64,000 bases of DNA from Lingula anatina (taxonomy: Eukaryota; Animalia; Brachiopoda). The notes beneath the pieces were generated by a model that made no database searches, was not told where the DNA came from, and was given only the letters and a program-made list of their open reading frames with translations. Positions 4,262 to 26,186 of this stretch are shown here, in pieces; the first letter of the stretch is position 1; each line of letters opens with the position of its first letter. The DNA lies in contig CM120640.1 of the NCBI GenBank assembly GCA_051362555.1, forward strand, positions 14,570,001-14,634,000, read 5' to 3'. The translations under genes and the position numbers were made by a program.

Positions 4262-4309
4262 TTACCACAAGGCTGAAGGTGATGGGAAATACGACATATC
4301 CTTGGGAAC
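4262..4309 (-). CDS. APGWa: GWamide precursor, putative terminal exon 3 (VPKDMSYFPSPSALW* if the internal donor is used; otherwise 3' UTR)
   Basis: Strong acceptor TTTCTTTTATTTTTTCCAG| at 4310. The phase-0 frame is open for 15 codons to TAA. Confidence 0.5.
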   Translation of the reverse strand, partial: VPKDMSYFPSPSALW

Positions 4310-5359
4310 CTGGAAAAAATAAAAGAAATTTGAGGAAGCACAACATTTTGCTCCCATTCTTGATAACGCTACTATTAATTTAGTTTGTCGAGTTTTGATT
4401 ATAGCTTTCTTAATATTCACAAATATCTAATTAAAGGAAATAAGGATCAAGCTGGTGATGTAGGGCCTACTGCCAATTGCATATAGATTGCCGCTAGAAG
4501 GAAGATTGGATTCACCAGAAGTTAAAAAAAGATAACAATCATAAGATGTTATACAGGTAGGTCTAATTATCAGACCAAACATAAAAATTGAAACGAAATA
4601 TTGAGGCCTAACTCCCACGCGCTAATCTTTTACCCAACCCGTGCAATCCCGTCCACTGTATTCTGTTCTGTCCAGTTAACTTAGAAATGAGGTAAGCTGG
4701 TGACGTGACAATGACAATGAAAACTTTAAATTTTTCATGCAAAATGACCAGATACAATTTAGACAGTAAAAACGTACACAGAATGATGTGGAGGAGAAGT
4801 AAATCTGATACAGACGAGATGGATTGAAAAGTTTTATATAGCATATTCTTTTTTATGTTAAATTAATAGGTAATTTTATTTTAAAGAGCTTTTATGAATT
4901 TCAACTGTATTTTCTCAGGTTTTACCCTCTCATAAGCCTCAGTAGGGTGGGTTTTATTTTTAAACGTGAGACGTAAATAAAACCATTATTATTATTATTA
5001 GTTAGAGGGAGTCCCATGTGACACATTGATTTGTTCAGGTAAGTGCCATTCTAGATTTTGACTATTACTTCACGCTATCCCAAATCTGTATGAATGGTGG
5101 ACTCTCTGTGAATTGGAACCTCAGTTTATTTTAAAACACCGGGAGAAAAGTGACCACCAGATGGCACCACGATAGTAGTCATGTAGAATTGGAGCCTCGT
5201 ATTCGTTTCTTGTGGAATAGCATTGAAAATAAGGGTCGCAAGCAAGTGTTTCCTTCCTAAAGCACGACTTAAAATAATTAAACTTGGCATTAAATTTTGA
5301 TTGTAACGCACAAAAACATTGTATTGGTTCACGATTGTCTTGTTGTAACTTACCTGTTT

Positions 5360-5446
5360 TTAGTCTATTAACAAGCTCATTCGTACTTGGGCAAGCATTT
5401 TACTAATAACTTCCCTCTCTAAATCACACGATTCATAGGTCAATAT
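5360..5446 (-). CDS. APGWa: GWamide precursor, coding exon 2 (ILTYESCDLEREVISKMLAQVRMSLLID*)
   Basis: Acceptor TTATTTTTTTCCAG| at 5447. The phase-0 frame is open and supplies a second Cys. Strong donor CAG|GTAAGT at 5354/5353 just after the stop, and a weaker internal donor CAA|GTACGA at 5387/5386. Confidence 0.75.
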   Translation of the reverse strand: MLTYESCDLEREVISKMLAQVRMSLLID

Positions 5447-6627
5447 CTGGAAAAAAATAAACAGGGGATCAGTTCATACGATTGTAGTGAGTTTCTACAA
5501 GTTTGAGGTTTTGTCGTAGAATTATATCCTGCATTGATATGCACTGACTGAGATATTCGTATTATGGAAGGTAAGATATATGAAAGGTACATGTATGTGC
5601 TCCACTATGGCCTCCACTGTAACTTCCCCCAAGCCCCCCCCCCCCGACCTGCCCAACTAACCACAATAGCCTGCCTCTGGGCATAATGTCAGCCTAACCC
5701 TTTTTCGCCTGGCAACGCCACATTCATCCCAATTAATGCGAAGTTTACAAAGCGTGGCGGGAAATAGAACGTTCTATGCTGGGAATGAACTTAAATGTAT
5801 GCTATCCGGTATGTATCCGAAAATCGAATTTTTAAAATTTTAAAAGCAATTTTATATTTCTCAAGATTTCTTGCTTGACCCGCCCCTAAAGTTTGATTTT
5901 TTATCAATTCTAATCTAGTAATTCAGCTCTTAACGCCTTACTTACAAATAAGACAGCTCTATCTTTCTGCACATTTCAAAAGGAAATATCATCGACACAA
6001 GATACTTTGAGGGGTTTTATCTTTCCAACTTCAACCTTAAAAACGATAAGTAACTTTGAAGGGTATGTAGGCATTAAAATATGACTTTGAGAAATTTTCA
6101 AGCACTTACAGTATACTCTTTTAAAGGTGACCGGTGTAAATCGTATAAAATTTGAAAGGTTCTTCAAAGAGAGAGAAAATGAGGAAACTATTTTTGCATT
6201 GTAAACTCTCTTTAAAAAAACATAAAATACAAAATAAATATACACAAATAATCTATGTACTACGAAAAGAAAGAAAGGAAGAAAACGCCACTAAACTGTA
6301 CACAGTGCTAATGGCAATATAAATGAAAAAAAAATAAATATCTAGATATCCCAAAATAGGGCCTACTGATACGGGTTAATTAGTGAAAGAATTATCGCAG
6401 TAGAACGCGGGGACGGATAAATTGATTCTTAACGTTCACCTTATAGTCTATTAACAAGAACTTACGTGAGGTTAGGACGCCTGCCTACCGATGAAGTGTG
6501 ATGGAACGGCACTGACTATCGATAAGTGCCACCATGGGGATAAATTAAGGCTTGAGGTGTTCAAACGCCAAGTAGTCGATTGTGAATCGGGAACCGGTAT
6601 ACATGTATCCCTGACAGTGTGGTACAA

Positions 6628-6914
6628 CAGTGGTCGCATTCAGAACAGATGATCCTCGGATCTACTGATCCGCAGATCAAATATGGCGGGCCCTACATAA
6701 AAGCAAGACCGCCTAATCCTTTAATGGTTTCCCAGCCTTCACACGGATTAAATTTCGCCTTCGAGGTGTAATTGCTAGGCCCTTGCAGGGAAGGCGCATG
6801 TGAAGGCAGGGGGATCTTTAAAGGATTATTTGGTATTGTTTTTTGGTAGGGTCGTCCATATTTAGTTTGCGTATCAGAAAGACCGCGGGTCATCTGTTGT
6901 GAATGCGACCACTG
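6628..6914. mobile_element. MITE-like element with about 60-bp imperfect TIRs in intron 1 of the GWamide gene
   Basis: CAGTGGTCGCATTCAGAACAGATGA... pairs with ...TCATCTGTTGTGAATGCGACCACTG. An extra partial inverted copy lies at about 6970-7000. No clear TSD. Confidence 0.65.
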
Positions 6915-8089
6915 AGCGGGGCATCTATTCAGTGTCTAATCGGGAATTAAGCGGAAAGCTTTTTAGTGAGTCGCCATATTTGATCGCGGATGAGTTAATC
7001 CGCTGTGTCTTGACCAAACACATTCTTATCCACACATTTCGTTCATAGTTGACATGGATTTATGTCTATGGTGATAAGGAAGATGTTATGTACTAATTTA
7101 CTGCGCAAAGTAGACATGACGTTAATGGCTTTAACTTTCCATGAAAACAACTTCGCTGAGAGCCATCCATGACCTCATACTCAGTCGATCGGGACACCGT
7201 TCTCCATTAAAATTAGTCATAAGTCGCCAATTTACAATCGGTTTTGACATTTTCGTACGAATTCCTATTTAAAAAGAATCTAAAACATGGATATCAGCCT
7301 GTCCCAGAGTGTATCCTGTAAGAGTGAATTATTCCTCCCTAGATAAAGATGCGCACATATGAGCAAAAATATAAGTTTTTTTTTTATAGTTTGACGTCAT
7401 TGTCGGGAGACCGTCACAGGTCCTTGAGGGAGTCAACCAAAATGGAGAGAAGTGTCTGCTACTGAGCAGACGACTCCCTGATTACTGTGATGTTTGATGA
7501 AAGGTCAGGAATGGAGATCACATAATGGGCCCAAAATGCGAGATATGGGAAAGGATTTCGGCCATGGAAAGGCGGGAAGAAGACATCGATCTGCGAATGA
7601 AAATCAACAAAACTCGTCGAAATTCGGTAGACCTTCTTTGACATCGAAAAGTTTTTGAACCTTTTACCGTAAAAAATGCAAGAAGCAATATTTCCAAATA
7701 TCACCGAAATGAATTCTCAACCTAAACAAATTAAACAAAATCTATAGTGAAGGTAATATGTAAAATTAATGGACTGATTGGAAAATTTCATCGTAAAATG
7801 AGACAAGAAGATTTGCGAAGAAGGCCGTGTCTTGATTTTGAAATTCCAAGTAAACATTGAATACTGTGCTTCTACCGAAACCTGTTGCATTATTATCATC
7901 TTTACACGCAACATGCTTATTTAAAGTTGAGGTGATATACATCTTTCATTCTACACATTTAAAGGCAATGGCATCCGTGCAAAAGTCATAGAAGTAGAGT
8001 ACAGCAATTTTATGAAATTATAGAAGTAAAACGTTTTTGAGTGAAGCTATCGGTTAAACATTTCTTAGTAAAAGTGAATTTTTCCTCAC

Positions 8090-8767
8090 CTTCACAAACA
8101 TGTCCAGCATCCGAGAGAATGCTTCTATATTGTTTTGACACTGTGCTGATTTGTCCCTTATGTCCGTGGACTCTTTATTTGAAACTGGAGAAGATAAGTC
8201 TGTTGCTGATGCGGAGGAATTTCCTGGGAGAAAACGCCTGTTGTAGTCCATCTGAGGGGCGTCCTCTACATCTGCGACATCGTCACTTTTGAGAATACGT
8301 TTTCCCCAGCCTAAGCCTTTTTTTAACTCCGGGACCAAAATTTGATTACGTTTTCCCCACCCTGCTGGTGCTCTTTCTCGCTTCCCCCACCCCATAGCGC
8401 GTCGGACCGGGGACTCATTGAAAAAAGAGCGTTTACCCCATCCCATCGCTCGTTTCACCTCTTCCAGGTCGAGAGTAGTGGATCTTTTGCCCCACCCTCG
8501 TTTGTCCATCGTGCTTGCCATGTCACTGCCGGAGAAGCGTTTTCCCCAGCCACGATTTGGCCGATCCATATCATCGCCGTTATTGCCAGGAGGATTTTGA
8601 GACAGTGAATCGACAGCCGAAAGCAGGTACGAAATATCGCTCACTTGTGGCTCGCTGCGTTTTCCCCATCCCATTCTTCTTCTATATCTGTCGCCGCCTT
8701 GCACATAGCAAGATGAGAAGAGAAGTGAGTATACAAGCAGTTCGACTATTACCAAAAACGACTTCAT
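8090..8767 (-). CDS. APGWa: GWamide (APGWamide/RGWamide-family) neuropeptide precursor, coding exon 1 (226 codons)
   Basis: Signal peptide MKSFLVIVELLVYSLLFSSCYVQG, then seven GW-G-KR amidation/cleavage units (MGW, ..NRGW, GW, AMGW x2, APAGW, GLGW) with spacers. Ends ...CQNNIEAFSRMLDMFVK at donor AAG|GTGAGG (intron starts at 8089, phase 0). Confidence 0.92.
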
Positions 8768-8792
8768 TTTTCCTCACTGGTGGTGGAGATCT

Positions 8793-8890
8793 AACTGGCT
8801 ACAGTCGAGGTATGTTACGGAATTTATATTCTCTCGTTGCCATCAGTGTCAACCCACTGCCAGTCCACGCCGCACGCTATGGTTGCGTCA
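8793..8890 (-). promoter_or_regulatory. Core promoter of the GWamide precursor gene (TATA + Inr-like + CRE-like site)
   Basis: TATAAA at 8828-8823, Inr-like CCAGTT with its A at 8796 (32 nt downstream), TGACGCAA at 8890-8883, ATG at 8767. Confidence 0.6.
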
Positions 8891-9543
8891 GTCTTCAACG
8901 GGTCTTTGGCAGAGGAGAGTGTATTCAAAATCGGTGACTGACAACATTTGTTGGTGCCAAAATTAATCTCAAAAAAGTTCGATTGCAATTACAAGCAGCG
9001 TAATTATCTCTCAGAGGACTTGGTAATTAAAATTGGAACTTCTTAACGTGGTGCCTGTCATAGTTGTAAGTGTGCGAGATTAAATATTGATAGGTTGGTT
9101 GAACGGGAAATTAGAAAACGCCTGCAGACGCTTAAGACGAAAAATATTCCTGAAGGCGATGACTATAGAACGAAACATATCTTCATTGAGTTAACGCGTT
9201 TGGGAAAATATTAATAAGAAGCTTTATTGTTGAAGGGCATGAAAGTTTTAGCGGGCCATTGAAATTGAAAGAAAAACTATCTATTAGCTTGAATATTTTT
9301 TAACGAGAACAGACAAAAATGGCTTGCCTTTTAGAACGCTGCAGGTGCAAATAAAAAAATTGGTAGCATATTGCGTCACACTGTTTTTTTTTGTCAGAAT
9401 TTAGTGCTATTGAATGTATCACATTTTGTAATAGGCTACATTTTCAGGTTTAGATTAAACATTCCAAAACTGAAAGTGCAACTGAAGAAGAAGAAGAAAA
9501 AGAAAGAAGAATAACAAAGAAGGAGTAGAAATGAATTATTTTC

Positions 9544-9583
9544 ATTATTATTATTATTATTATTATTATCATAAATGTTATTG

Positions 9584-9622
<39 letters not shown>

Positions 9623-9624
9623 TT
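9544..9624. repeat. (TTA)n/(TTTA)n microsatellite
   Basis: Direct reading. Confidence 0.9.
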
Positions 9625-12600
9625 CAGGGGTGGATTTAGGCCGTCTTCTGAGTCTTCCGGAACACGGTAAGATTTTCAAGTTTACATTGACGGGTATCTA
9701 ATTTTTTTCTGTCGGAAGACGGTCAAAAAATGGAGGATGGATCAACAAATATAATATGGAAGACTGTCAGAAAATATTTATTTATTTACAGAACGGGCCG
9801 TGAAAAAACCGTGAAAAAATTAGGCGCATGATTTGAATGATGAAATGTTGAGGCATAAACTTGAAAACAATGCAAAACATTCGTGGGTGAAGATAGGTGC
9901 TTTGATTATATCATCTAAAATTTATCACTCAATCAAAGTGACGTTCCAGGGTTCAGGCGTAGGCCGGAGATGACCCGCGTCCCTTAATTCTTGAAGCACT
10001 TTATCACGTGGGTTCCTCCCGATTGACTTCCCCAACAAGAGTAGGTATGCCTTTTTTTCTCCTTCTGTGAGGTCCATTACAGTTATTTATTTCAGTTTCC
10101 CCTTTTTTTTCAAAACGTCCCCCGAAATAGAAATTAGTATTGGAGACTTACGTGGTAAGCCCACGGTGTGCACAAAGCACGTCAAGACGGAATGTGCTAT
10201 CTTTCAATATTTCAAGAAAGGAACACGTTGATTAAAAGCTAGATATCTTGTATAGCAGAATATTGCTCAAAAGAGAAAGGGAATATCATTGAACATCATT
10301 GAACATCATTGATATCACTATTTCAGTGACTAAAGGGATACATTGAAACACAGAATCCCGACTGCATTTTCCCTGATTCACTATTATTTGGTACCTTAAA
10401 GTACAATAAAAATGCTTCATTGCGTAAATCTATAACTGGGATTACGCTACTGCGCATATTTTTGTACCCTTTGTGGCCAAGTGCATTACGTGTATGTAAA
10501 AACGCAGTTACTATCTTGATGGCCAACACGCTGTTGCTGTTTTTTTTTTGGCTATGCCTTGCTGCTGACCTTATTCGATTGATTACCTATATTTGTAATT
10601 AGAGACACCATATTTGTTAGACCGAGGCCGTATTAAGAGACGCTGGATGAGTGTCTTCGACAAAATGCCAAGCCATAGATCTACAGTGTCTAAATGTTCC
10701 CATATTAGTTAATTGCGGTACTTATACAATCGTTAAATTCATGGATAGGTATATTAGCTTAAATAAAAAGTTTATGGCCTAATCAAAACCATAACAAATT
10801 AAAAACAGCGACTCAAGTTACAGGATCCTATTAGTATTTACACTTAAAAGAGCATTTTTAAAGGCGTGTTTGAACTGACGGCCCTGGACCATTAGATTGC
10901 TGAACATGGGCTTCTAGTGCTGAGGCACCACGAAACTTCTTTGCTATTGGGTGACGTAAACTACAAATGATTTGTCTTAGTGCCGACCCTCTTGGCTTGA
11001 GTACAAATGGATTCCACTACTACATATTCTTCCCCTAGGCTAGAATATAAATGGTTACGTGCATTGATTGAAGACTGGTTTTGCGAGAAAATGTATTTTT
11101 AAACAGATTTCGTAATTTCATTTCTCAAAAAATGTCACGTGCCTTTAGAGACAGGACGAATCATCCGTAAAGGAGATGAGGACAATTTTAGGACTACAAA
11201 AATCCAACGAACAAACACCACTTTTTTTATTATCCTTGCTTAGAGATCTGGGGATCCGTCTCTAGAGAATAAGGATTGCCTACTAATAAGCCCAGTCAAT
11301 ATTTTCTCGACTCGACACTGTAGCCACCTTTTACTTTCAATCTTACTGCTTTTTTGCATCATAACCAAATTATTTGTTATTCCTCAAGGACTACATTTAC
11401 CAGAAAGAATGCCAGTAATAAAAACTATGGGAATATAGAAATGAAATCGTTGCATTAAAATAAGTATAGGCGAGATAAACGATATTGCCAAAGTAGTATA
11501 ACGCCTGGCACCAACACGGCCATCCCCAGGGAACCCGCACTGACGTTTATCGTGTTCTTCCCACTTGCGGAACAAACAAAACGTTTCTATTTAAAGAAAA
11601 ACATGGACATTTTGTTATATTTTTAGCGTATTTCACCATGTTTCGCAATACGTTTGATCGCAAAATTAGGTTTGAACGCGGAGCAGTTGTTTTACGCTTC
11701 TCATTTGGAGCATCCTTTCCCTTGCGTCATTTTAGTCAAAGTTGATTGGAAATGACCTTTAAAGTGCACGTGTTAATTGTGGAAAATTGACAATTAGCTG
11801 TTTTGTTTCTTTCCCCCAAGCAGTGGTTGATGTTTTTAAAGTTAAAAATTCATTTAACATAAAATATCCATCTATGTATAACTTGTGTATCATGTACGTC
11901 ATGTAACATCTATCTCTCTACACTGCCCACCAAATCTAACCTGAGGCCAACTTAGGCTTTTAATTGAATACACTAATGAACCCTGGATAACAAGAAAAGG
12001 GAGGGGTATTGATTCCTGGAGAACGGTTTTCGTAGAAACAGCGCAGAATGCGATCCTAGATTTTTCGCACAACAAAGAATGCGAAACCAAAGCTTGACTA
12101 ATTCTTCTCTCCTTGTTGCAGTCATAATACATTGGTGCAGATGCCTGTGTGGAGTGCCACGCGACTGATTATGCCTTGCCACACGCACTCACTTCTATAT
12201 TGCTACCTACGATGCATAGTGCAACATATCCATTTTTTTTCTGACACGCTATAGAATCCCTTAGAACAAATAAAATGATGTCAGGACACCTCAGTTAATA
12301 TGCTTGGATGCAAATGCGTGCACTTACGAACCCCAAGTGTTTTGCTATAGGCCAAAAGCCAAAAGAAGTTAAAATATCACAGAACCTACTAGTATTGTGT
12401 TATTCCGCACCTTGGCTGTAACAGTGCCTTTCCCTTTTGTATCAGAAGCATTCACTTTTAGTCGAATGAATGCATTTTGTATACATAAGACAAAATAAGG
12501 TCATAACTCAAAGTTATTGTGCTGTTACAAGGCATTCACCTTTCGACTTCTTATCAAAATTCTCAACTGACCAGTGTCATTTATTGACAGGAAGAGAATT

Positions 12601-13720
12601 GCGGTAGTTGAGATAGCTTCGCATTTTTATTCAAGTTGAACCGCCGTCGCAATAACATATATTTGTGTATTCTTCTGAAATGTCCAGCCAATCAAACTTT
12701 CCTTATGACCGTTACTTTCACGATTTGCTAGCAAAATATTCACATTAAAACGCGTAAAAAATTTAAAGGCATATCTTATATAAGATCTGAAGCTATGGAA
12801 ATTGTAAAGGTACTTTCTTTTTTCTTACATCTGTTAGAATCCTCTTTTTTTTACGCGGGAGTACACGCTCACGGTACACTTGTCTATATATCTTTTGTCA
12901 AAGGTTGAAAATTAAGTGTAAACTCCTACAGTGTACTTTAAGAAACATAATCCTCAAACCAAAATCGGAATTAACGCCCTAGATGATAAAAGAAGCAACT
13001 TGAGCGTTTCTGTCTGATTGATAATGTTTGTTCTTTCACTTACGTTTACATGAGGGATAAGTGTGATCCAGTATTAGCTGGCAGTGGTCTGTGAAAGGCG
13101 ACATGTATTCTGTCATTTTAGGTGGGGTTGAGGTTAAGGCAGCAAGCCATCCGGAGTCTTCTCAGTTTCCTCTCTCTGTAGTTTGAGTAAATTTTATAAT
13201 TACCCACGAAAAAAAGGAACACGATATATTTAAAAAATCCTGCGCGTCATACCCGTATTTAATTTCATAACCCTTGATATTTATGTGACAACAAAAAAAA
13301 TATAAATAATTATTAGATGGCACTGTACTATACGCAATTTTCCGGTAATTTATGTCGCAGTTCATGTAATTCACCAACACCACAGAAAGAAAAACAAATA
13401 GGAATGAAAGCAAAATAACCCATTCAGCCATGAATAACAACGAGTATTACCATACGCTTTTGAATCCTACTGCGATTTGTGCTCATATTGAGCCTATGTA
13501 CACTCTTAATTTGTGAGGCTTTTAATGGATGGGCAAACAAGGGTGCTTGATGAACAAATATGAGTGAGGGATCGGGCTAGTTCGAGGTAGCACAACCACT
13601 GAAGTGATTATTAAGCGACGTTGGTCCCCTTAGCGACAGTCCACCAAATTGATAACTGACCAGACATCAGTACCCACGGGGAAGAAGAGCCACTTACTGC
13701 AGGATCTTCTTGTTGTCACC

Positions 13721-13824
13721 ATGCCGCTTCCCCAGATAGACATCGGGGTGCGCAACACCACTTCACTGAGCGACCTGAAGAGGCTGCGTTCCTTTATGAA
13801 CGACTATATAGTTAAAGAACGCAG
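13721..13824 (+). CDS. Uncharacterised Lys/Arg-rich protein, exon 1 (MPLPQIDIGVRNTTSLSDLKRLRSFMNDYIVKER)
   Basis: Kozak-like GTCACC-ATG, open frame, donor CAG|GTAAGT, phase 2. Confidence 0.75.
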
Positions 13825-14450
13825 GTAAGTCGAGTTCAGGCTTTGTTATAGTGTTGGTTACCGCCAGGTGTCTGATTTATTTTGCCTTAGATCATTTTAA
13901 ATTACAAAATAACCAAAACTTTCGGATGATAGATTTACACTATCCATGTATATCTTGAATTGTTGAAGTATTGTTATACACTGTATGTGCCTTGACTTAT
14001 TTCATCACAATGGTAAACAGGAAAAAAACGGAAGTTTTGCTGAAAGATTCATGAATAAAAGCTTATTAGGAACTTATTTCTACAATTATGTTTTCTTCCC
14101 GACTGTAAAAATGGCAAGTCAACCAGATCGGCAAAATTATGGAAATAGATCTATCATATTCATTTCATTGTTGAAGGGAGATATTTTTTGTCTGTATTTT
14201 ATTTTTTTTCTAACCTAAGGTAACAAAAAATAAAAAAAATATTATAACAATATTAAGTAATGAATTGCACAAATAACGAAGAAGCAACTTAAGAACTTTT
14301 ATTCAGCAGTAGTAAGGAGTTACACAAAGGAAAGCGTGTTTGATTATCGAGTGGAGTAGGTTTATTGAGTTTTGCCACTCGTTCTCCCCAAAAACTCTCC
14401 TCTAAACATTTGCTTCTTTTCATTTTCCAATTACTCCATGTTGTTTACAG

Positions 14451-15106: not shown

Positions 15107-16145
15107 GTAAGTTTACAGTCATCGCGTATGTAACGTTTATCTTTATGTGCGCCTCTCTTTCAATTGCATTAGAGAAGCTCAATGACAAGCTCTGATATTG
15201 TGCCTCTTTTGAAAAAAGTATATACCAGAAATATACTTCAACTTTTGTTTTTTTTTTTTCAATGAGATATATCACATAATCCCAGCATATTAATGTTGGA
15301 TCAACATGTATAAATCCAGAAAATTTTAATTATATGCTTGTTTATGGAGGCTTAAAATTAAGATCAGATGGTTATATGCCCATGTGAAGAACGTGTATTA
15401 TTTTTGTTACGTTTGTTATCGATTAGACTTCTTTGACTTATGACTTTGAAAACCTTTTAGATTAGTTGTAAGTGATATTCTGTTCTTCTCGTTAATTTAT
15501 AATGACACAAGTCAGTTGTTTATGGCAACTGAAGTAACGTTTCTATTATCCACAAACACGTTTGAGCGCAGCGCCTTTGCGTGTAGGAATTATCAATTTG
15601 GCAATGGTCAGTAAAAGTTAAGTTTAAAAAATTATTTTCTTTCACAAACAAGAAAAAAAAACTGTAGACATAACGCTTTATTTTTTAACCGAAAACTCCC
15701 CACAAGGTTGAATAGTCGACTGAGTATTAGCATTTAAATCCTTTGTTTCCTTGCGACTGTCACGGTCAGTGACCTTTCTCAGACTGACGTTTGAGATGAC
15801 CACTAAATACGACGTCAGGCATTAATAAACGCGCACACCACTCATCCGCAGGCGGAAAGAGTTTTCATCATAACTACAAACTGCGTGGGCAGAACAGGTT
15901 ATCTGCACCTTTATTGGGTGGATTGAAAGTAAAGTGATAAAAATGTTTCATAAAATATTTATTCTTTCACATTAAGCGCCATCATTTTCCAACAAATCTA
16001 TCATCTCTCTTCAAGAGTGTGGTGTTTTCTACATTAAAAAATTGACAGTAAGAGAGTGGAAGACCGAATGTAATTTTGATAACCGCATAATGCATTTTGT
16101 ACTTTATTTTTGAGTCAATCATGATTCTTTTTTTTTAATTTTCAG

Positions 16146-17140
16146 TGTCAAACGTTAATGCAGATACCAAAGGAAAGATGGCACCAAAAGACGAAAACTC
16201 CGCAAAATTAAATCAAAACATCACAGATAAAGACAAACCAAAGCCACCAAAAAAGAAAAAAGAGAAAGAACAGAATCTTCATAGTGAACAAGAAGGAAAA
16301 GAAAAACTTACACTAGGTAAAAGTGAACTCATTCCAGAGAAGAAGCTGTTAGAGAGGCGGTCTTCCTTCATTGAACTATTTAAACAAAAGCCAAAAAACC
16401 AACACCAAACCGCTAAACCTCCGGCGGACTATGAGCCCCCACAAGTTCATTCCAGTCTTGATTTCCCAAGTCCTTACGTGTCACAACTGGGACACCCGAT
16501 GCACAGACACTTACGATCACAAACTCAAATTGCTGTGCGACCCTCACCCGAGGAAGAGGAAAGGATGATCGATATCCAACGCCGAAAAATCGTCCGTTCT
16601 CGCTCTGTTCAAGCAAAAAGATCTGCAGCAAGCGCCTTGCTTGCTCGTGACAAAAAGACTTTGCAATTTAAGCGAGCCAAGGCCGTTTACAAAGTGAATG
16701 TCGAAGAGGAGCGTGCTTTGAGGCAAAAGACGTTTTATGATTCATTGGAAAAACTTCAGCTTCAACATGTAATGGATCATAATAAACGCATCAAAGACGA
16801 AAGCCGAAAAAGAGATGAGGCATTAAACAAAAGACACCGAGAACTTACAGAACTTCACGACAGATTTGAAAGAGAACGCACTCAACGGTGGAACTCTCAG
16901 TACGTTTCTTCAAAGAGGTTTAACACTGATATCAAAATTGTTGCAAAGAAAGAGAAAAGCGACCATGCAAAACCAAGAAAACAAAAGAAAAATTCATACT
17001 TGCACTTTAGCAAGTCTAAAGTCCATGCTCAGAACGTTGAGAGGTATTCATCCCTTTTCAGCAGTGGTACATCCGGGCACCCCCGATGGGGTCCCGTGGC
17101 GTCACCTGCTCTACAAGTTGCCCTGATGGGAATGACGTAA
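16146..17140 (+). CDS. Uncharacterised Lys/Arg-rich, probably coiled-coil protein, terminal exon 4 (whole protein 441 aa)
   Basis: Acceptor TTTTTTTAATTTTCAG| with phase 1 matching the upstream exons. 995-nt open frame with an E/K/R-rich helical stretch. AATAAA at 17996-18001. Confidence 0.85.
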
Positions 17141-17360
17141 TCTGGGACAATCCAATCTTCGGATGTGACATTTTTTATTTATTTATTTATTTATTTTTGC
17201 GTTTTATGAAAAAAAAGCAACAAACAACAACTTGGCACTTCGCGGCCACCATAATCACACCTGCCACATATGTTGAACCCTTCACTGTATTACAAGTAGT
17301 TAGGTTACCAAGCTGCACTAGGACCCATATATAGGGCCTACATTGATGATGGGTGTTGGA

Positions 17361-17539
17361 TACCCTCTACCAGGGCGAGTGATGGATTTTTTTACAGATA
17401 TTCACAGATATGTCTCTAGCTAGATAGATAGTCATTTACAGCTGAACTCATGGGTTTAGCTGAAAATGACCATCTATCTAGCTAGAGACATATCTGTGCA
17501 TATCTGTAAAAAATCTATCACTCACCCTGGTAGAGGGTA
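17361..17539. mobile_element. 179-bp fold-back MITE with 9-bp TSD (Mutator-like)
   Basis: Near-perfect palindrome TACCCTCTACCAGGG...CCCTGGTAGAGGGTA, flanked by GGTGTTGGA at 17352-17360 and 17540-17548. Confidence 0.85.
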
Positions 17540-18151
17540 GGTGTTGGATCTTACTCGTGATTGAAAGCACACATGATGTTAACGCGAACTCGAGATTGAC
17601 TAAGCCGCACATAGTACATGTAGCAACTCTCTCTTCTCGTAAGGTATAAGCTGTGAGTAGAAGGTTATTGCTAACGTCTGTACCAACTCCTATGAATATC
17701 ATTGTTATTTGCCTTCAACGTAAAGATGTAAGGACTTGGTAGTATACTTCGACATAGTGGAATTTATCTCTGTTTGTAGAAGAAATCAGATCACAGCAAA
17801 TATTCTTTAAAATAGCGCAGGTTACAAGCATCCGCACTGAATTTTTTAGGCCAGGTTTTACCAAAGAGTAAGAAAAAGAATAATCCACTAAAATTTATTG
17901 ACGAATCATAAATATGATAAAAAAACTACAACCCAAAGCTTCAATCGCTTTCATCATTTGTTTAACATAAGGTTGGTTTTTTATTTGGTCCGCTCAATAA
18001 AAATGAAATACAGCGTATAAGCTAAAGACTCCCTGTACTGAAAGATCATCCTTTTTTGAGATGTGTAATTTCATTATACGTCAGTTGTTGCTCAAATGAG
18101 AACATGGTGCCTACTGTGAAATAATCTCAGTTAAAGTAACTGTAGCGATAG

Positions 18152-18327
18152 ATTTCTATGTATGTTATGTAATAAGAATCGGAACTTCACATTGGTGAGA
18201 ATACTGATTTATTCTATTTATGTATATATAAAATACGTATAACTATACATTTCTATGTATGCTTTGTAATAAGAATCGGAGTGAAGACTTCACATCAGAA
18301 GTTCACATTGGCGAGAATACCGATTTG
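18152..18327. repeat. Local imperfect tandem duplication (about 97-bp period)
   Basis: ATTTCTATGTATG..TGTAATAAGAATCGGA..TTCACATTGG.GAGAATAC.GATTT occurs twice. Confidence 0.8.
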
Positions 18328-21025
18328 TTCTTTTTGCGTATAAATAAAATACACTTCAAATACAATCTTAGGGTCATTTTGTTGCCCCTCCCCCGCCCCC
18401 CATGATAGAGTTCTCTTCCCATTCATTTGTACAGGTAAGCCTCGCCCTAGATTTTGACACCGGCTTGCAATTGGAGAAGTCTGATTTGTCATCTCCAGAA
18501 TTCATCAGTGAAAGGGTTAACAGGTGAAGACGGCCATAATTGTCTGCTTCACAAGAAGATCTTTAACAACGCTTGCCGGTGCCTCAAGCTGATTTCCACG
18601 TATCTACACCACTAAAATAAAACAGTCAGTCACCCCTCTGTCGATGCGAAGTAATTTGCTGGGAACAAAAGAAAAAAAAGCACAATTATATGAGAGCTTG
18701 CTTGATCGAGGAGAAGGTGCCTCCCCAGGCTCCGATGAACACTCATTATCACTTATTGTAAATACAGATGTTGGTGTGAATAAATTTATTGCACCTGGAT
18801 GCTGGTAACAATTATTCATATCTTGCTACAATAAATGTTAAGTAATTTCTCCACGTACTTCATGTTTCTGATGCTTAAGGGCAGGAATGTGCTTAAAATA
18901 TACAGTTTTGACAATTTTTTTTATATCTTTGGCTGATAAAATGCTGTTACGATAACACTGTTGCTGTGGTCATTGGAAGCAATTAGTACTGGAATGTACT
19001 GTAGAATCATATCAGCCTTTTTTTTTTCATTTCTCAAGATTAATTGCATGGATATTTTTGTTTGTTTATTTGTTTGTTTGTTCGTTTGTTTGTTTGTTTT
19101 GGCTTGTGCATATTTGAACATTGGCCCCTATTCTGAAAACGCCATTCCTTCATTTGATTGCACAATCTACCAATGAGTTAGCACATTACATGCAAATTAG
19201 CACGCAGACAGCCCTGTGAATATGTGCGCCCCTGAATAACACATTTTCCGCAATATTCAATCCCAGTGAATGCAATATTCATCGCTTATGGTTTCAGGAG
19301 ACCAAGAAAACATTAGGATCATTTGGCAGCACTTCCACGGGACTGAGTTTTTTCTTTTAGTTTTTTCCTCCACAGAGGCTGAGTTAAAAGGGGCAATCGG
19401 TGCTTTTTCTAAACGATACTTCAAGAAGAAGCGCAGTGATCGAGTTAGTCATACGCTTTACAATAAATACATAATAAGATAATTGGTAATATAATAAATA
19501 ACTTCTGTTCACTTTCTACCCACGATTTGGTATTGATATTGGTTCAGTCGACGCGTAGATAGGCCTCACTGCAATATAGGATAGAGAATAATGATTGTTC
19601 TTGCGCTCAATCGTGCAGGCCTTTTTTTGCATAGAATGAAATGAAAATTTACACACATACTACAAACATGCACGCACACACACACACATACAACACAAAA
19701 CATAAAAAATTATCTATTAGGGTGCACCGCACCCTAATAGATAAATGCTTAATACCATTCTCGATATAAACTTTCAGCGACCTTGTATAAAAAGGCAAAA
19801 TTTTAACGAAGCATACCATGCTATAGAAAAGAAGTAGGAAATGCTTTATCCCAGATGGTAGTATGTATTCCACAGGTAAAAATATACACACCGCATGATA
19901 CAAGTAAACAGATAATCCGAACGGTGATATAATTATTACCTACATAATTACATATACTGTGGTTACATAATTGATATTTAGAAACATTGAAATAAATAGA
20001 GCGATTATTAGCAATATAGGCCATAAATGGAACATTGCCATAAATAGAGCGGTTATAGGCCTTACAGGCTATAGCTTAATATTTTCATTGTGCATGAAGA
20101 ATTGTAAGAAGGATGATACAATTTATTGGTTTGAGTCAAAGAGTTGGAATTTCAAAAACAACATCGCTTTATTAAAGCTGAAGCCATTTTTTGTTCTTGT
20201 AAAGCTGTCCAGATCTCCATATTAATGTTTGTGTAAAGGCCATGCCTTCCACCACACAGTGAACTACATGTATCATTGTTTCAAAATAATTCATTAATTC
20301 AGGCGCACTTCCATTCAATTCATTACAAAATTTAAATCTGATTTCAATTATTCCCCATGCGAAGTGTTTTAGTCTGGCTGCAGAGTTTTATTAAAATATT
20401 TATAGCCTTTACTATTTTTTACTGACAGAGGAAAGAAGGGGTGAGACATTATTTTCACGACTCAAATTAAATCTGCATGCAAAAAAGTCAGTCAGTAGAA
20501 AGGACTTTATAACTGCACCTTCTTCAAATTTCTGGTCGTTAATTTGACCTTCTTAATTTTCCAGGGGAGGTAAGCGGGTCCTACATGTGCAAATATAATT
20601 TTTTTATGGGGAAATAATGTAACGAAAGTCTGTGGTATTTCTTCAAGAAATCCTATTTGAAACTGTATGGTGGCATTTGATCAGACTTAGTGGCAAAAGT
20701 TTGACACAACTACTCGCTTAAAGAAATACGTGATTATCTTTCATTTCCTAGGATGGGCGTGTTTGCATAAAACATTTCTCAGTCAACAAACGATCCGAAT
20801 CGGCTGTGTGTCCGTGTCCCTTTTCCTTCGCCATATTGTTTTCTAACGGGGCGAGCCCCCTCTGCCGCATGGATTTGTATTTGATTTATACACATCAACT
20901 GTCCCAGTATGAATCACAACAATGATTCCACAACTTTCCAGGAATCAAATAATATGATAGAGATAAAGAGAGAGAAAATAAAACCATTGGGAGTGAGTCA
21001 CACAGAATACATCTTTACTAGCCGT

Positions 21026-21548
21026 CTCAGCCAGCACACACATCTAGGACCCAGATGGGTACAATGTAGGTGGTGGGATTGCTAGGCAGATGCTAAACTC
21101 CGTGGCCTTATCTGGGTCCCTGATGGGTCTTATATGGGCCTGCCTATTTCATGGGTCACTGCACTTTGTATACAATGTATGTAGAGATTCCTCATGTCTG
21201 TTGTTGAGACTGCATGTTTGAGACTATATATATATATATATGCAACATTTGAGCCTATTTTTGAGTAAATTGGAGCTTATGATTATACCTGTACTTTGTC
21301 CGAATTTTAATCTTTAAATATCTTAATCCCTAAAAAGGCTGCCCATTTTGTGGCCTTCTATCACCAAACCCCCTACATTAGCCCACGTCGGACCATATAC
21401 AGGTAAATCTTATACAGGACACTAATTTTAGTCTATCTGTGCTTGCCCACATGAGACCCACATAAAGCCCATTGACAAATCTATCTGGGACCCACATCAC
21501 AGCCCATGTAAGCCCTCATATGGGACCCATCATTGTGTGTAGACTGGG
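21026..21548. mobile_element. Degenerate non-autonomous DNA transposon (CCCAG-type termini, CMC/EnSpm-like)
   Basis: Imperfect termini CTCAGCCAGCACACA / TGTGTGTAGACTGGG, CGT on both flanks, and many subterminal GGGNCCCA(C/T)AT motifs in both orientations. Confidence 0.55.
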
Positions 21549-23540
21549 CGTACGGTATCTTTAGAGCCAGGGATTAGAAATTATTGTTAGGCATGTCGTT
21601 TTCTTCCTTTTCCTAACCTTAGCATTTCACATATATCTTTGACTTTCTCATCTTTCATCTTTCCTCTATACTTCGGTCGTGTGTTCTTTTCCACAATTTA
21701 CGGGGAATTTCTTCATTGGAGTCCTGTTCACACTGTATCAAGAAGTAAATTGAAGTAAATTGATCTCAGATCTCCCCACTATACAAACCATTTGATCATA
21801 AATCTTGGTAAGTCTTACACTTTGAAAATAAAACGTGGTTAACTGGGGCGTGCGCGAATAAAGCATACGCCCATTGCCCGTTACGTCTGAAGTTATCAGA
21901 AATCTGGTTGCGTGGATTTCTAACCCGCGACATGTCGTGAAACCAATTAATTTCAATCCTTGAACATTGGAGGGTAAGGATTTGCTCACCAGTAAAGATC
22001 GTCTCTCAATTATAAAGATAATAATCTTGTTCCTGGTAGAAGCACAGACACTGGTTATAGTTGAGGGTTAATAGTTCTCATTCCCTGAATGTAACGCTGA
22101 TGCTTACTTTTGCCGATTCTAAGTCTTTACAGTAGTCGTAATGAATATTCGCATTGTTTATGCCAGGCAGTGACAGTATGATCTCAGTAACATTGTATCA
22201 AATTTGCGTGATCCGTAATCGTCAAGATTAGTCAGTTACTAAATTTAGAAACCAATCACTACCCTTTAGCCTCTTAAATGTCAAATTACTGCTGAGAGAC
22301 TAATGAATTTTTCCTCTCCGCGTGGTTCTTGTTATTCACAACTCGCACTGTTGTTAATTAACACACGCCTAAATGCCACACGTGCAGGCGAACCAAAGAG
22401 ACTCACAACCCACGCTTTAACCGAGTTGTCAATTAAGCATCCTGTGAAACAGTGATATATGTGTTTATTCATATGTTTGTGTGTGTGCGTGTTTGTGTGA
22501 GGTTTATGGTTATTACCACCGGGCTCTCTTCTGCTAAGACATGTAGTTATTCAATTATGCATGATGCATTTGGTCGCTTGCTGTGCTGCTTACTGCGACT
22601 AGTGAAAATCTAGTACATATTTCACCAATAGCATTAGTCAACAGAACCTCATTAGTTAGGTACGTAGTGGACGAATTTTTGTTGGAACGGATTTTGATCA
22701 CGTGTTCGACACGTTTCCTTCGATTCTCAATCTCAAAGTTATTCATTGATCTATATCGCTGTATCCGAACATGTTTTTCAGATGATGCTTTGAAAGTTTC
22801 TGTGGACCTACTCTCCACCAGAGGTTCCTCTGTTCTTGATCATGTCAAATCCCACAGAGGTCCTTCGGCAAATTTTCTAACTGATTCAAACATTGGCCCT
22901 TCTGTCATTTGACAGTTTTAACAATGTCAGTTTTCTACTTTTGCTTGCTTTAGTGTATAGGGGCGAAATTCACTGAAATGCTTTTTTTTAGTTACTAACA
23001 TTGCGCAATTTCATTAAATCTCAAAACCAAATAATCTTAATATTTCTTTATTTTTGTCGTCCCATTAGAATTGTATTTGGCATAAATCATATCTATGTAA
23101 TTAGCTTTTATTCCATTTTCAAATGTAATTTGGTATATATCGGAAGTACATATACCGTATATTATTGGATTTCAGTGGGAAACTGAAACAATGCTCTAGC
23201 TCTCTCTCGCTGGCATGGTTATGAACTCTCTCAACATGACATAAACCCCAAACTACGATAGTAATTACACACAACAGCGATTTATTTGGTTTAAAGAGTT
23301 TCTTTATCGGGAAAACGTAATTTGTTTTACACTGCGGCACATTTTCAGTGGGCCAATGGAATTTCCACCTCAATAAATGATCTTTGGGTTAAAAACATCC
23401 TTCCGGTTTCAAAGTCTGAGCAGAAACCATAAGTAACAGTTTGAATAAAAGAAGTCACCGACAATTTAACTGTCATATGCTGAAGGCTGCGCCTGCCTGG
23501 TGCTGCCGACGCTGTATCACTCGAAACAGAGTTTGGTCCT

Positions 23541-23557
23541 TCAAACCCGTGGAGCAT
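23541..23557 (-). CDS. AKH/GnRH-type precursor, coding part of exon 3 (DAPRV*)
   Basis: Acceptor CTTTCCATTTCAG|. Phase 1 gives DAPRV-TGA. AATAAA at 23286-23281. Confidence 0.7.
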
Positions 23558-23731
23558 CTGAAATGGAAAGACGATAAAACCGACCGATTAGAAAATGATA
23601 AGAATTAACAGTTTATACTCTTAAGTTTAATTTCATACATGAGAGTTTCAAAAGTCGTCTCACACCCCAATATACAAAAAGGAGACTAGGTCTACTACAG
23701 TGCATGCCTTTGGTTAATTCAAACCACATAC

Positions 23732-23807
23732 CTTGTTTGGTGAATCCCCGGACTCTGTTTTCCTCGAATTTTCTATTATAACAATAGTCCGTCCTCATGA
23801 TCTCAGC
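23732..23807 (-). CDS. AKH/GnRH-type precursor, coding exon 2 (AEIMRTDYCYNRKFEENRVRGFTKQ)
   Basis: Acceptor TTTTTTCAATCATTCAG|GCT. It yields LLQ|AEIMRTDYC, the helix-E-x-C pattern typical of AKH/RPCH precursor-related peptides. Donor AAG|GTATGT, phase 1. Confidence 0.8.
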
Positions 23808-23885
23808 CTGAATGATTGAAAAAAGCCAATGGACTTAACACTTTTGTAAAGACAAACATTAAAATAAGCAAGAAAGGTATTTTTC

Positions 23886-23888
23886 GTG

Positions 23889-23937
<49 letters not shown>
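23886..23937. repeat. (GT)n microsatellite in intron 1 of the AKH/GnRH-type gene
   Basis: Direct reading. Confidence 0.95.
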
Positions 23938-23940
<3 letters not shown>

Positions 23941-25867
23941 CTTGCTTTCAGCGAATAACCTAAGATGATATTTTTTGTGTGTATTCAGCACTTTGAAATG
24001 ACTTGATATGCTTTAAACAAAAAAGTCAAGTACTGTTATTTGCATCAGGGAATTAACGTAATATGATAAATAGAGCATATAGAAATAAATATGAAAAAAA
24101 TCAGATTGACCCATTAAAATAAGATATTTACAACAACGTTTAAAAACAAGACTTGTTTATTTAATAAGCCCCTCAGGCACCATCTATTCATCCTAAAACT
24201 AGACCTTTAAGGGTACTGACAGGGTTTATGATAATCGAAATATCGGAAATGAGGTTTTTCGTGCAGCTTAATATTCAATTATGTACCTACAATTTTGCTG
24301 ATTAAAAACAATAAAAATCAAGTCGAAAACATAAAATATCCTCTTTTATATATCTCTCACACAGCGACCAATAGTTCAAATAAAGAGAACTTAGATCAGC
24401 GATTATGTAGTAACAATGTTCTTTGACGTTCAGAATTCTAACCGTTTTGCATTCTGTTTCTCATGCTGACAATTATGAACACAGACGCACATTTGACAAC
24501 ACCATTATAACCGCTACACCATCTGTGGTCGTAAAAGATTAAAATAAGATTCAATCTAACACTTTAACATAGCCCTCTGGATGAAAGCATGCTGAAAAGC
24601 ATGTTACACACGTATCTTGCCTATGTGGTAAAACAACAAGCATCAGTGACAGCTGCATCGCCCCATGGGGTAAATGTATCTTTTTCCTTAATAATGGTAT
24701 TCCTATGTAATAAGATAGGGTTTTAGTAGCGTCATTAAACATGGGGAATCTGGGGGCGAAACGATGAAGTAAATAATCAAAATGTAGCTTACTTTGGTAT
24801 ATTTTTGAAAATATTTATATTCATTTAAATTAAAATCCAAATGTAATTAAAAACAGAGTGGTTCTAAAGGTGCACATGACCTAAGTATTAACAAACAACA
24901 GTGCTGTTGACGGCAACACAAAAGTCAATCATCAATAGCAATCATGCTCTTACTTGATATGTCACGAAAGTAAAACGTGTTTAAAGTTATGATCTTTGTG
25001 AAGCTGAAGACGTCTTTAAACATGTCACTGACAACATGAACAACATCAGTGGTCAAGTGGAATCACAAGCTCTTCTATGTAGACATTTTTATCCTTCAGT
25101 TGGAGACAAAGACTTCAAAAGGATGATTCCAAAATATAACTCGAATTGAAGTAGTGTGTGTGCAAAAGGGTGTGATCACTTTCGTGCGTGTCTGTGCGTG
25201 TGCCTGTGGAAAGGCAATGAAGATTCATCTTGCTTCATTTGGTAGGCCCCCAATTAAATAATTTTGAGCGAAGCTAGTGTAGGTGCCTTTACCTTTAAAG
25301 TAAAATATGCGTGAAAATATGAAAATTCCCAAGATGCGATGCACATAGAGCAAACAATAACACTTGCATGGGTTAAAAGAGTCGGCCTACATCACTTGGT
25401 ATATTAGATGCCTGAGAACACAAGGCCATCATGCACAACAAATAAATAAATAAATGAATAAACTTCTTTTCTGAATTTTCTAAATTATGACTTTTGCATG
25501 AAATCTTTGAAATCCTTGTTTTCGTGTCCGTGCGTTTTTGTTTCAACATTTCATAGACATTTCCAGAACTATGTATTCAAATATTGAAAAAAATGCCACT
25601 TATGCCAATTTTGTTTTTATTTGCCAAATCTCGATACCGTCGCACATAGGTTGCATCATACTTGCTACATGATTTGAAAACGATTGCCGAAAAATTGACA
25701 AAAGAATATCATAAAAAATTCTCCACCAAAACCGTATATCGCGCGTTAATTCGTGTTGGCGAAGTGCGCTGTCGCATCACAAGTCTGTCATCCTATCCCC
25801 GGCATGACAGTCTTGTGTGACAACTCCCACTTAAACGACAAAGAAAAGACCAACAACGATCACTTAC

Positions 25868-26092
25868 CTGCAACAGGTCACGTATTAGTTTCATAACTTC
25901 GCTGTTCCTTCGATCATCACAGAGAGAGTCATCTTGGCTGTCTTGGCTGAAAATGCTGGAAGGATTCGTCCTTTTCCCCACCATTCCTGCCGCCCCCCAG
26001 CCGAGCGTTTGGTGCCATTGACAATTTGTATTTTGCAACACCATCACTATCACTGTCACTGATATCCACAACATATTGTGTTTGGTAACCAT
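25868..26092 (-). CDS. AKH/GnRH/corazonin-superfamily neuropeptide precursor, coding exon 1 (75 codons; mature pQWHQTLGWGAAGMV-NH2)
   Basis: Signal peptide MVTKHNMLWISVTVIVMVLQNTNC directly followed by Gln-initiated QWHQTLGWGAAGMV-GKR, then ...LCDDRRNSEVMKLIRDLLQ. Donor CAG|GTAAGT, phase 0. Confidence 0.88.
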
Positions 26093-26149
26093 TCTTGACG
26101 AATATTGTGTACTGTGTTCAAAAACTAATTCTGTTACTGACGGTTTACG

Positions 26150-26186
26150 TGACTTTTGCTCGTCGTCAAGGCTCCAGACTTTATAC
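26150..26186 (-). promoter_or_regulatory. TATA-box core promoter of the AKH/GnRH-type precursor gene
   Basis: GGGTATAAAG with TATAAA at 26185-26180. Predicted start near 26154 (AAAGTC), about 60 nt upstream of the ATG at 26092. Confidence 0.55.

What the first reader, a model, noticed from the sequence alone, without database searches (positions are those of the whole stretch)
4262..26186. Linked GWamide and AKH/GnRH-type precursor genes with shared exon architecture: possible genomic trace of a common origin
Seen in sequence: two neuropeptide genes on the same strand about 15 kb apart. Each has a TATA box directly before one large exon holding signal peptide, GWG-containing peptide(s), a Cys and an amphipathic helix. 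Each then has a phase-0 intron, a short exon with a second Cys, and a third short exon. The junctions are CQNNIEAFSRMLDMFVK|ILTYESC (C-x22-C) and CDDRRNSEVMKLIRDLLQ|AEIMRTDYC (C-x25-C). Established: a two-Cys helical C-terminal peptide interrupted by an intron is typical of AKH/RPCH-type precursors, and an APGWamide-AKH/RPCH relationship has been proposed mainly from the short shared PGW-amide ending. Inference: these genes are ancient tandem paralogues, one keeping a single pGlu peptide and the other internally multiplying the GW-GKR unit. Linkage plus intron position would be independent evidence for that idea. Caveats: primary-sequence identity is very low and the second intron differs in phase.
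Basis: partly seen in the sequence, partly recalled or inferred. Interest (0 to 1): 0.88.

Follow-up and report, generated by a model that had tools for sequence, protein, structure and literature searches.

The report
GWamide gene as hidden GnRH paralogue
Two real neuropeptide genes of a lamp shell, one for GW-amide peptides and one for a GnRH-type hormone, lie 14 kb apart and share a two-cysteine tail split by an intron at the matching place, so the GW-amide family of molluscs and worms likely arose as a copy of a GnRH-type gene and would later have switched to a different receptor family.

Summary
Both genes are real and published singly: the Lingula anatina RGWamide precursor (LOC106179816) and a GnRH-2-like/proto-AKH precursor (LOC106179818), same strand, about 14 kb apart. 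RNA reads confirm both GnRH-2 junctions. The RGWamide protein stops in exon 2, so the shared three-exon plan is wrong. Compared directly, the two tails are no closer than chance. Orthologues rescue the claim. The phase-0 donor sits 16 residues after Cys1 in 16 of 17 read-through RGW/APGW proteins, and 8 before Cys2 in three published genes, as in the window's GnRH-2. The GnRH-2 tail fits an RGW/APGW tail profile (28 of 5000 shuffles). Published annelid GnRH-1 and nemertean RGWamide tails share 12 of 26 residues without gaps. In the annelid Dimorphilus the two genes carry consecutive protein ids, likely an independent linkage. Against: the RGWamide receptor falls in the MIP/GPR139 clade, not with GnRH receptors. 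Best reading (0.72): an old tandem paralogue of GnRH/AKH that multiplied its GW-GKR unit and changed receptor. Kinship was proposed in 2002-2023; my searches found no report of the linkage, and this scan had not noted it elsewhere.

The parts
8822..8828 (-). TATA-like box of the RGWamide gene
   Evidence: Seen in sequence; the RefSeq mRNA begins at 8780. Function not tested.
8090..8767 (-). RGWamide precursor coding exon 1: signal peptide, seven GW-GKR units, Cys210 and most of the amphipathic helix
   Evidence: helix predicted for residues 201-229 at pLDDT 73-85; a few reads in one of four runs.
5447..8089 (-). Phase-0 intron between the two cysteines of the RGWamide precursor, 16 residues after Cys1 and 6 before Cys2
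   Evidence: published splice pattern; junction not seen in reads.
5354..5446 (-). RGWamide exon 2 with Cys233 and the stop codon (5362-5360)
   Evidence: the translation equals XP_013419038.1.
4262..4309 (-). Start of a possible untranslated third exon (good acceptor at 4309); not coding in the RefSeq model
   Evidence: Sequence only; no reads.
16139..17140 (+). Intervening 333-codon ORF, probably an exon of an unrelated gene
   Evidence: no Pfam match; expression not tested.
26488..26494 (-). Upstream TATA-like box, possible true promoter of the GnRH-2-like gene
   Evidence: reads of one run reach to about 26400.
26180..26186 (-).
   Evidence: Seen in sequence; reads of one run extend upstream of it.
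25868..26092 (-). GnRH-2-like coding exon 1: signal peptide, predicted 14-residue pGlu peptide pQWHQTLGWGAAGMV-amide, GKR, Cys58, helix
   Evidence: helix 58-94 predicted at low confidence.
23808..25867 (-). Phase-0 intron between the two cysteines, 17 residues after Cys1 and 8 before Cys2
   Evidence: 8 junction reads in 3 of 4 runs.
23732..23807 (-). GnRH-2-like exon 2 with Cys84; followed by a phase-1 intron of 174 nt
23270..23557 (-). GnRH-2-like exon 3: last five codons, stop at 23543-23541, 3' UTR with AATAAA at 23286
   Evidence: 8 junction reads; depth ends in the bin 23236-23369; the 3' end is approximate.

Best explanation
The window holds the brachiopod RGWamide gene and a GnRH-2-type gene 14 kb apart, and these are likely surviving members of an old tandem duplication of a GnRH/AKH-type gene in early spiralians. 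Shown: both genes have a signal peptide, W-G-containing amidated peptide(s) and a two-cysteine helical tail split by a phase-0 intron. Inferred steps: (1) a GnRH/AKH gene was copied in tandem; (2) one copy multiplied the end of the peptide with its cleavage site (GW-GKR) inside exon 1 and lost the pGlu N-terminus, while tail and intron stayed; (3) the resulting short W-amides came to act on a receptor of the MIP/proctolin/GPR139-related clade, which prefers aromatic amidated ends, so ligand and receptor have different ancestries. The direction GnRH to RGW is inferred from distribution (GnRH is bilaterian-wide, RGW/APGW is spiralian). In the cell, gene 1 is predicted to release seven GW-amides and gene 2 one 14-residue pGlu peptide; the tail likely serves as a disulfide-linked folding or sorting piece, which was not tested.
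For: Intron register. A phase-0 donor shows as Val 17 residues after Cys1 in 16 of 17 read-through RGW/APGW representatives, out of 27 examined (6 spliced and 4 without a tail Cys set aside). A GT donor is seen in the DNA at that place in the 2 unspliced loci of 3 fetched. Published genes of a scallop, a nemertean and Capitella have the intron 16 after Cys1 and 8 before Cys2. The window's GnRH-2 has it 17 after and 8 before. Li et al. report one shared same-phase intron in oyster, insect and Capitella AKH genes, and a mussel AKH read-through breaks off 17 after Cys1. Tail sequence. The GnRH-2 tail scored against a 20-row RGW/APGW tail profile, Cys columns unscored, is reached by 28 of 5000 shuffles and 0 of 187 other Cys-Cys segments of the window. 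It is best in the true register of 17 tried, and above 727 of 727 natural 18-mers. HHalign pairs both cysteines. Mussel APGW precursors align to the arthropod AKH Pfam model over positions 5-50 of 51 (E 1.6e-4; E 0.002). By eye, Platynereis GnRH-1 and Lineus RGWamide tails have the same spacing and 12 of 26 identical residues without gaps, and Bombyx AKH-1 and Mytilus RPGWamide share 9 of 11. Intermediates. Platynereis GnRH-1 carries an extra GW-GKR unit, a Capitella GnRH has two peptide copies, and a rotifer precursor is reported with AKH plus APGW copies. Linkage. Seen directly here. In Dimorphilus RGWamide and GnRH/AKH-1 are DgyrP11866 and DgyrP11867 of 17,409 peptides, with genome-guided cluster numbers 15155, 15149 and, for the GnRH-2 type, 15182; corazonin is 7207. 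Chance of consecutive ids is about 1e-4 to 3e-4.
Against: The deorphanised annelid RGWamide receptor and its orthologues group with MIP, proctolin and myosuppressin receptors, and Thiel et al. expect the precursors to have diversified with them. The two window tails are not significantly alike (206 of 2000 shuffles). The window's own RGW tail does not beat shuffles against its family profile (1559 of 5000). With the hydrophobic pattern kept, the GnRH-2 score is reached by 321 of 10000 shuffles, and one of six leave-one-out family members scored -16. HHalign is not significant (E 0.06 and 0.14, probability under 1%). The Pfam AKH hits (14 of 27 proteins) are mostly driven by GW-GKR, and the unrelated TRH model hits 17 of 27; neither window protein has a Pfam match. 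The by-eye pairs were picked as the best-looking and have no E-value. That Dimorphilus ids follow gene order is inferred, not read from coordinates. In Capitella the RGWamide gene and three GnRH-type genes lie on four different contigs, scaffold relation unknown. No mollusc linkage could be tested. Corazonin genes share the intron too, so it marks the superfamily, not the GnRH branch.
Confidence: 0.72

Rival explanations
1. Chimera: only the 3' half (helix, intron, second cysteine) came from a neighbouring GnRH-type gene and was joined to a W-amide repeat array of the MIP lineage. The peptides kept their original receptor clade, and no receptor switch is needed.
For: Receptor phylogeny places RGWamide with MIP and proctolin. 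A W-amide/MIP/GWamide cluster is named in the Platynereis survey. All strong sequence evidence concerns the tail. Adjacent genes can exchange segments.
Against: GnRH-type precursors with added GW-GKR or duplicated peptide units exist, so internal multiplication is an observed route. Signal peptide, peptides and Cys1 share one coding exon in both genes. Clustering of repetitive precursors can be spurious, as Thiel et al. note.
Confidence: 0.17
2. Convergence plus chance: a Cys-helix-Cys tail with a late phase-0 intron is a common neuropeptide design, and the two genes lie together by accident or by later co-regulatory clustering.
For: The window pair is not significantly similar. Amphipathic pattern explains part of the profile score. 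The Atlas search with a tail alone returned glucagon-like clusters at 0.80, not AKH. Two other Dimorphilus neuropeptides lie within 92 ids of each other.
Against: Same intron phase and same distance to Cys2 in both families. Ungapped 12 of 26 identity between orthologue tails. The two control families visible in the same supplement, pleurin and CCWamide, have phase-1 or phase-2 introns. Consecutive ids in a second phylum.
Confidence: 0.08
3. Reverse direction (DNA-loss model): AKH/RPCH/GnRH-type genes derive from a multi-copy APGW/LW-amide ancestor by loss of codons.
For: Proposed in 2002/2007 and restated with the rotifer precursor. It also predicts the shared intron.
Against: GnRH and corazonin systems predate the protostome-deuterostome split, whereas RGW/APGW has no deuterostome orthologue.
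Confidence: 0.03

Closest known systems
RGWamide/APGWamide precursors (Thiel et al. 2021, PMC8557429)
   Same: Gene 1 is the very Lingula member used there (XP_013419038.1): multiple GW-amides, two C-terminal Cys, one phase-0 intron between them.
   Different: In the sections and supplement parts read, the paper links the family to the MIP-related receptor expansion and does not compare it with GnRH/AKH or mention the neighbouring gene. The Lingula tail is two residues shorter after the intron than in the other three genes and runs on past Cys2.
Spiralian GnRH-2 / proto-AKH precursors (Thiel et al. 2021; Li et al. 2016, PMC5024129)
   Same: Gene 2 is identical to the published Lingula GnRH-2-like protein: pGlu peptide straight after the signal peptide, Trp at position 8, extended C-terminus, two-Cys tail with the shared phase-0 intron.
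   Different: Not a true AKH by the Li et al. rules (14 residues; positions 4-5 are not FS/FT/YS). It has an extra phase-1 intron after Cys2. Its exon structure and position were not given in the parts read.
DNA-loss model of APGWamide-RPCH/AKH kinship (Martinez-Perez 2002, 2007, seen only as cited in Cadena-Caballero 2023, PMC10730642)
   Same: Claims a common origin and predicted an APGW intron matching AKH/RPCH introns.
   Different: It rests on active-peptide codons and virtual precursors, calls the Cys region highly variable, and has no synteny (0 occurrences of the word). It runs from multi-copy to single-copy, the reverse of the reading here.
Calcitonin/DH31 and GnRH/corazonin duplications
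   Same: Neuropeptide families born by duplication of a precursor gene.
   Different: There the receptors stay within one related group; here the paralogue would have moved to a distant receptor clade.

Membership tests
RGWamide/APGWamide precursors (gene 1) | Signal peptide and multiple GW-amide copies in the N-terminal region | tested here: met
   Hydrophobic N-terminus and seven GW-GKR units.
RGWamide/APGWamide precursors (gene 1) | Two C-terminal Cys 20-30 residues apart with no peptide copy between | tested here: met
   Cys210 and Cys233, spacing 22.
RGWamide/APGWamide precursors (gene 1) | Single phase-0 coding intron between the two Cys | tested here: met
   GT-AG sites at 8090/5446 give the RefSeq protein; junction reads were not obtained.
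RGWamide/APGWamide precursors (gene 1) | Peptides activate the RGWamide receptor | not testable with these tools
   Shown only for Platynereis, as cited.
GnRH-2 / proto-AKH (gene 2) | [quoted passage not shown] | tested here: met
   14 residues; pQ1, aromatic 2, W8 (rules).
GnRH-2 / proto-AKH (gene 2) | Two-Cys C-terminal peptide with the shared phase-0 intron | tested here: met
   shared intron (figure not seen).
True AKH (gene 2) | 8-10 residues with FS/FT/YS at positions 4-5 | tested here: not met
   14 residues, QT at 4-5.
GnRH/AKH/corazonin superfamily (gene 1 family) | Single N-terminal pGlu peptide after the signal peptide | tested here: not met
   Seven short GW units, none pGlu-led directly after the signal peptide.
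GnRH/AKH/corazonin superfamily (gene 1 family) | Homologous two-Cys tail and intron position | tested here: met
   Met for the family through orthologues; the Lingula RGW tail itself is too diverged to score.
GnRH/AKH/corazonin superfamily (gene 1 family) | Signals through a GnRH-type receptor | not testable with these tools
   Literature says otherwise: the RGWamide receptor is in the MIP/GPR139-related clade. So the gene family is filed as a likely paralogue by descent, not as a member of the signalling system.
Ancient tandem cluster | Linkage conserved in other phyla | tested here: inconclusive
   Consecutive ids in Dimorphilus; different contigs in Capitella; molluscs not testable.

The most novel reading that the evidence does not exclude
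Early spiralians carried a three-gene cluster GnRH-1 / RGWamide / GnRH-2, of which Lingula keeps two neighbours and Dimorphilus all three. The APGWamide/RGWamide family is a GnRH/AKH paralogue whose clipped W-amide ends were captured by a receptor of the MIP/GPR139 clade: a neuropeptide that changed receptor family, against the rule of ligand-receptor co-evolution.
Probability: 0.6. Interest if true: 0.8.

Novelty: new variant of a known kind. Interest (0 to 1): 0.68.

Why it matters
Neuropeptide families are classified on the assumption that ligand and receptor evolve together, and on that basis RGWamide/APGWamide sits with MIP-like systems. If tail, intron and linkage tie its precursor to GnRH/AKH, a well-studied mollusc reproductive peptide is a GnRH relative that swapped receptor. 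That would settle a proposal open since 2002, with the opposite direction of descent, and show one route from a single-copy hormone to a multi-copy transmitter precursor. The claim is cheap to test with existing chromosome-level genomes and receptor assays.

Tried and rejected
No whole genome is held for the window, so the rest of the scaffold and a possible GnRH-1 gene elsewhere were not searched. No third GnRH-like precursor was found among 55 G[KR]R sites in six frames of the window. Three homologue searches returned only the two Lingula proteins and one annelid-type relative. No AKH/GnRH-1 protein from another species was obtained as a stored sequence, so the strongest tail comparisons are by eye, and tail-only Pfam or profile-profile scores are missing. 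The run search listed no RNA holder; nine same-label RNA runs were offered and seven of them laid; gene 1 was nearly uncovered, which says nothing on its splicing. Atlas searches: gene 2 gave corazonin and GnRH clusters at 0.93; a tail alone gave nothing above 0.80. PDB sequence search with gene 2 gave only designed repeat proteins and a kinetochore subunit, rejected as helix matches. A homodimer prediction of the GnRH-2 tail gave no answer (score 0.08, mark 0.32). AlphaFold models are low-confidence overall (mean pLDDT 55 and 53) and were not searched by fold. The metagenome scan gave three short contigs (1.4-6.8 kb) with no neighbouring GnRH-like exon. Synteny by accession numbers failed for molluscs: no paper held six accession stems, and the oyster table showed APGWamide and GnRH rows but not the AKH row. 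Searches for an earlier report of the linkage or an APGWamide receptor paper found none. Rejected: the three-coding-exon model of gene 1, and Pfam AKH hits that cover only GW-GKR units.
Full report
What is in the window. Two minus-strand genes were rebuilt from the sequence. Gene 1 has a 678-nt coding exon (8767-8090), a 2643-nt phase-0 intron and a second exon in which the frame stops at 5362-5360. Gene 2 has coding exons 26092-25868, 23807-23732 and 23557 onward, with a phase-0 and a phase-1 intron. The products equal two RefSeq proteins named for Lingula anatina, XP_013419038.1 and XP_013419039.1. Thiel et al. 2021 list them as the Lingula RGWamide precursor and a GnRH-2-like precursor. The start codons are 17.3 kb apart and the gene bodies about 14 kb; a plus-strand 333-codon ORF lies between.

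Checking the observation. RNA reads confirm both gene-2 junctions, 8 reads each in 3 of 4 runs, all three from one study. Gene 1 was almost uncovered in 4 of 4 runs, so its junction rests on the RefSeq model and the published splice pattern. The shared plan is therefore two coding exons split between the cysteines, not three. The two window tails are not alike beyond chance (206 of 2000 shuffles).

Intron position across the family. A search with an annelid-type relative gave 27 RGW/APGW representatives. Four have no cysteine after the last repeat, six are spliced, and 17 appear to read through into the intron. In 16 of these 17 the residue 17 places after Cys1 is Val, the trace of a phase-0 GT. 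One cluster holds both a read-through and a spliced form that part at that point. Two metagenome loci show the GT donor in DNA at the same place; the third locus is spliced. Published scallop, nemertean and Capitella genes have the intron 16 residues after Cys1 and 8 before Cys2. The window's GnRH-2 has it 17 after and 8 before; the window's RGW gene 16 after and 6 before. Li et al. 2016 state that oyster, most insect and Capitella AKH genes, and insect corazonin, share one intron of the same phase; I could not see their figure. In their supplement the oyster AKH has the same 25-residue spacing as the window's GnRH-2, and a mussel AKH taken from genomic DNA breaks off with Val after position 17.

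Tail sequence. A profile from 20 stored RGW/APGW tails (the Lingula one left out, Cys columns unscored) scores the GnRH-2 tail at 1.8 against a shuffle mean of -18.3; 28 of 5000 shuffles and 0 of 187 other Cys-Cys segments of the window reach it. The 18 columns next to Cys2 score best in the true register of 17 tried and above all 727 18-mers of two natural ORFs; with the hydrophobic pattern kept, 321 of 10000 shuffles reach it. The Lingula RGW tail itself does not beat shuffles (1559 of 5000), and one of six leave-one-out members fails. HHalign pairs both cysteines but without significance. The arthropod AKH Pfam model covers mussel APGW precursors from the last repeat to Cys2 (E 1.6e-4 and 0.002); most of the 14 of 27 hits are repeat-driven, as is the TRH model's 17 of 27. 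By eye, on published sequences, Platynereis GnRH-1 and Lineus RGWamide tails have equal spacing and 12 of 26 identical residues without a gap, and Bombyx AKH-1 and Mytilus RPGWamide share 9 of 11. I chose these as the best-looking pairs, and they have no E-value. Platynereis GnRH-1 also carries a second, GW-GKR-ending unit, a Capitella GnRH has two peptide copies, and a rotifer precursor is reported with AKH plus APGW copies.

Linkage elsewhere. In the neuropeptide list of the Dimorphilus genome paper, RGWamide is DgyrP11866 and GnRH/AKH-1 is DgyrP11867. Their genome-guided Trinity clusters are 15155 and 15149, the GnRH-2 type is 15182, and corazonin is 7207. The annotation has 17,409 peptides, so consecutive ids would arise by chance about 1 to 3 times in 10,000. 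That both numberings follow genome position is my inference from how such pipelines work (recalled) and from two other entries whose numbers move together (9439/7931 and 9531/8047). In Capitella the four genes lie on four different contigs, which neither shows nor excludes linkage. Molluscs could not be tested.

How it most likely came about. A GnRH/AKH-type gene was duplicated in tandem in early spiralians. One copy multiplied the GW-GKR end of its peptide within exon 1, lost the pGlu start, and kept tail and intron. The obstacle is the receptor: the RGWamide receptor groups with MIP, proctolin and myosuppressin receptors, sister to GPR139/142, and Thiel et al. expect precursors to have diversified with that clade. 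The simplest reconciliation is receptor capture, since that clade responds to aromatic amidated ends. The main rival is a chimera that took only the tail from a neighbouring GnRH gene (0.17). Convergence with chance linkage (0.08) and the reverse DNA-loss direction (0.03) fit worse. The tails are predicted helices; their role is untested.

What is known and what is new. Both proteins and the RGW intron are published. APGW-AKH/RPCH kinship, with a predicted shared intron, was proposed in 2002/2007 and restated in 2023. Nine literature searches found no report of the linkage or of the tail-and-intron match between RGWamide and spiralian GnRH. Several key papers are not held, so this may be in print.

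Papers seen. PMC8557429: abstract, passages, sections 13 and first part of 14, supplement parts 1, 14, 213, 215 and searches. PMC10730642: abstract, first part of the text, passages, section 12, first part of the discussion. PMC5024129: passages, figure legends, supplement passages. PMC7854359 and PMC8398477: passages and supplement passages. PMC4200219 (also its supplement list), PMC6425005, PMC11589774, PMC7270403, PMC5996578, PMC3890597, PMC5747525: passages only. Bauknecht and Jekely 2015 and Jekely 2013 were not held. Martinez-Perez 2002/2007 and Veenstra 2010/2011 were seen only as cited. Figures, the rest of these supplements and those of bioRxiv versions were not seen and may bear on novelty.

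Verdict. Observation partly confirmed; interpretation partly supported, and stronger through orthologues than through the window pair. Confidence 0.72, interest 0.68, new variant of a known kind.

Noticed in passing
window 62339-63625 (+): Single long ORF (428 codons) of a rhodopsin-type GPCR; best solved relatives are the prolactin-releasing peptide and NPY2 receptors, so probably an sNPF/NPY-type receptor, not the receptor of either peptide here.
   Followed up: partly
window 16139-17140 (+), possible upstream exon near 13721-13824: Lys/Glu/Arg-rich ORF between the two neuropeptide genes with a strong acceptor and no Pfam match; the guessed upstream exon does not fit its frame directly. RefSeq protein numbers of the two neuropeptides are consecutive, so it may be annotated otherwise.
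   Followed up: partly
window 29147-30038 (-): Overlapping ORFs that read like a frameshifted Tc1/mariner transposase (resemblance recalled, not searched).
   Followed up: no
window 6640-6990, 2550-2620 and 24250-24330: Short interspersed repeats inside or beside the genes draw many partly matching RNA reads.
   Followed up: no
PMC8557429 supplement, GnRH list: The GnRH-1-like sequences given for the brachiopod Hemithiris and the nemertean Paranemertes are identical over the 58 residues they share and resemble annelid GnRH-1; possible cross-contamination, which would weaken the published spread of GnRH-1.
   Followed up: no
window 26186-26494 (-): Two TATA-like boxes 308 nt apart before gene 2; two upstream ATGs lie between them, and reads of one run cover this stretch, so there may be alternative starts.
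   Followed up: partly
window 23200-26200, reads of runs X7-X9: Reads differ from the window at many positions in coding and untranslated parts, suggesting a diverged population or cryptic species under the same label.
   Followed up: no
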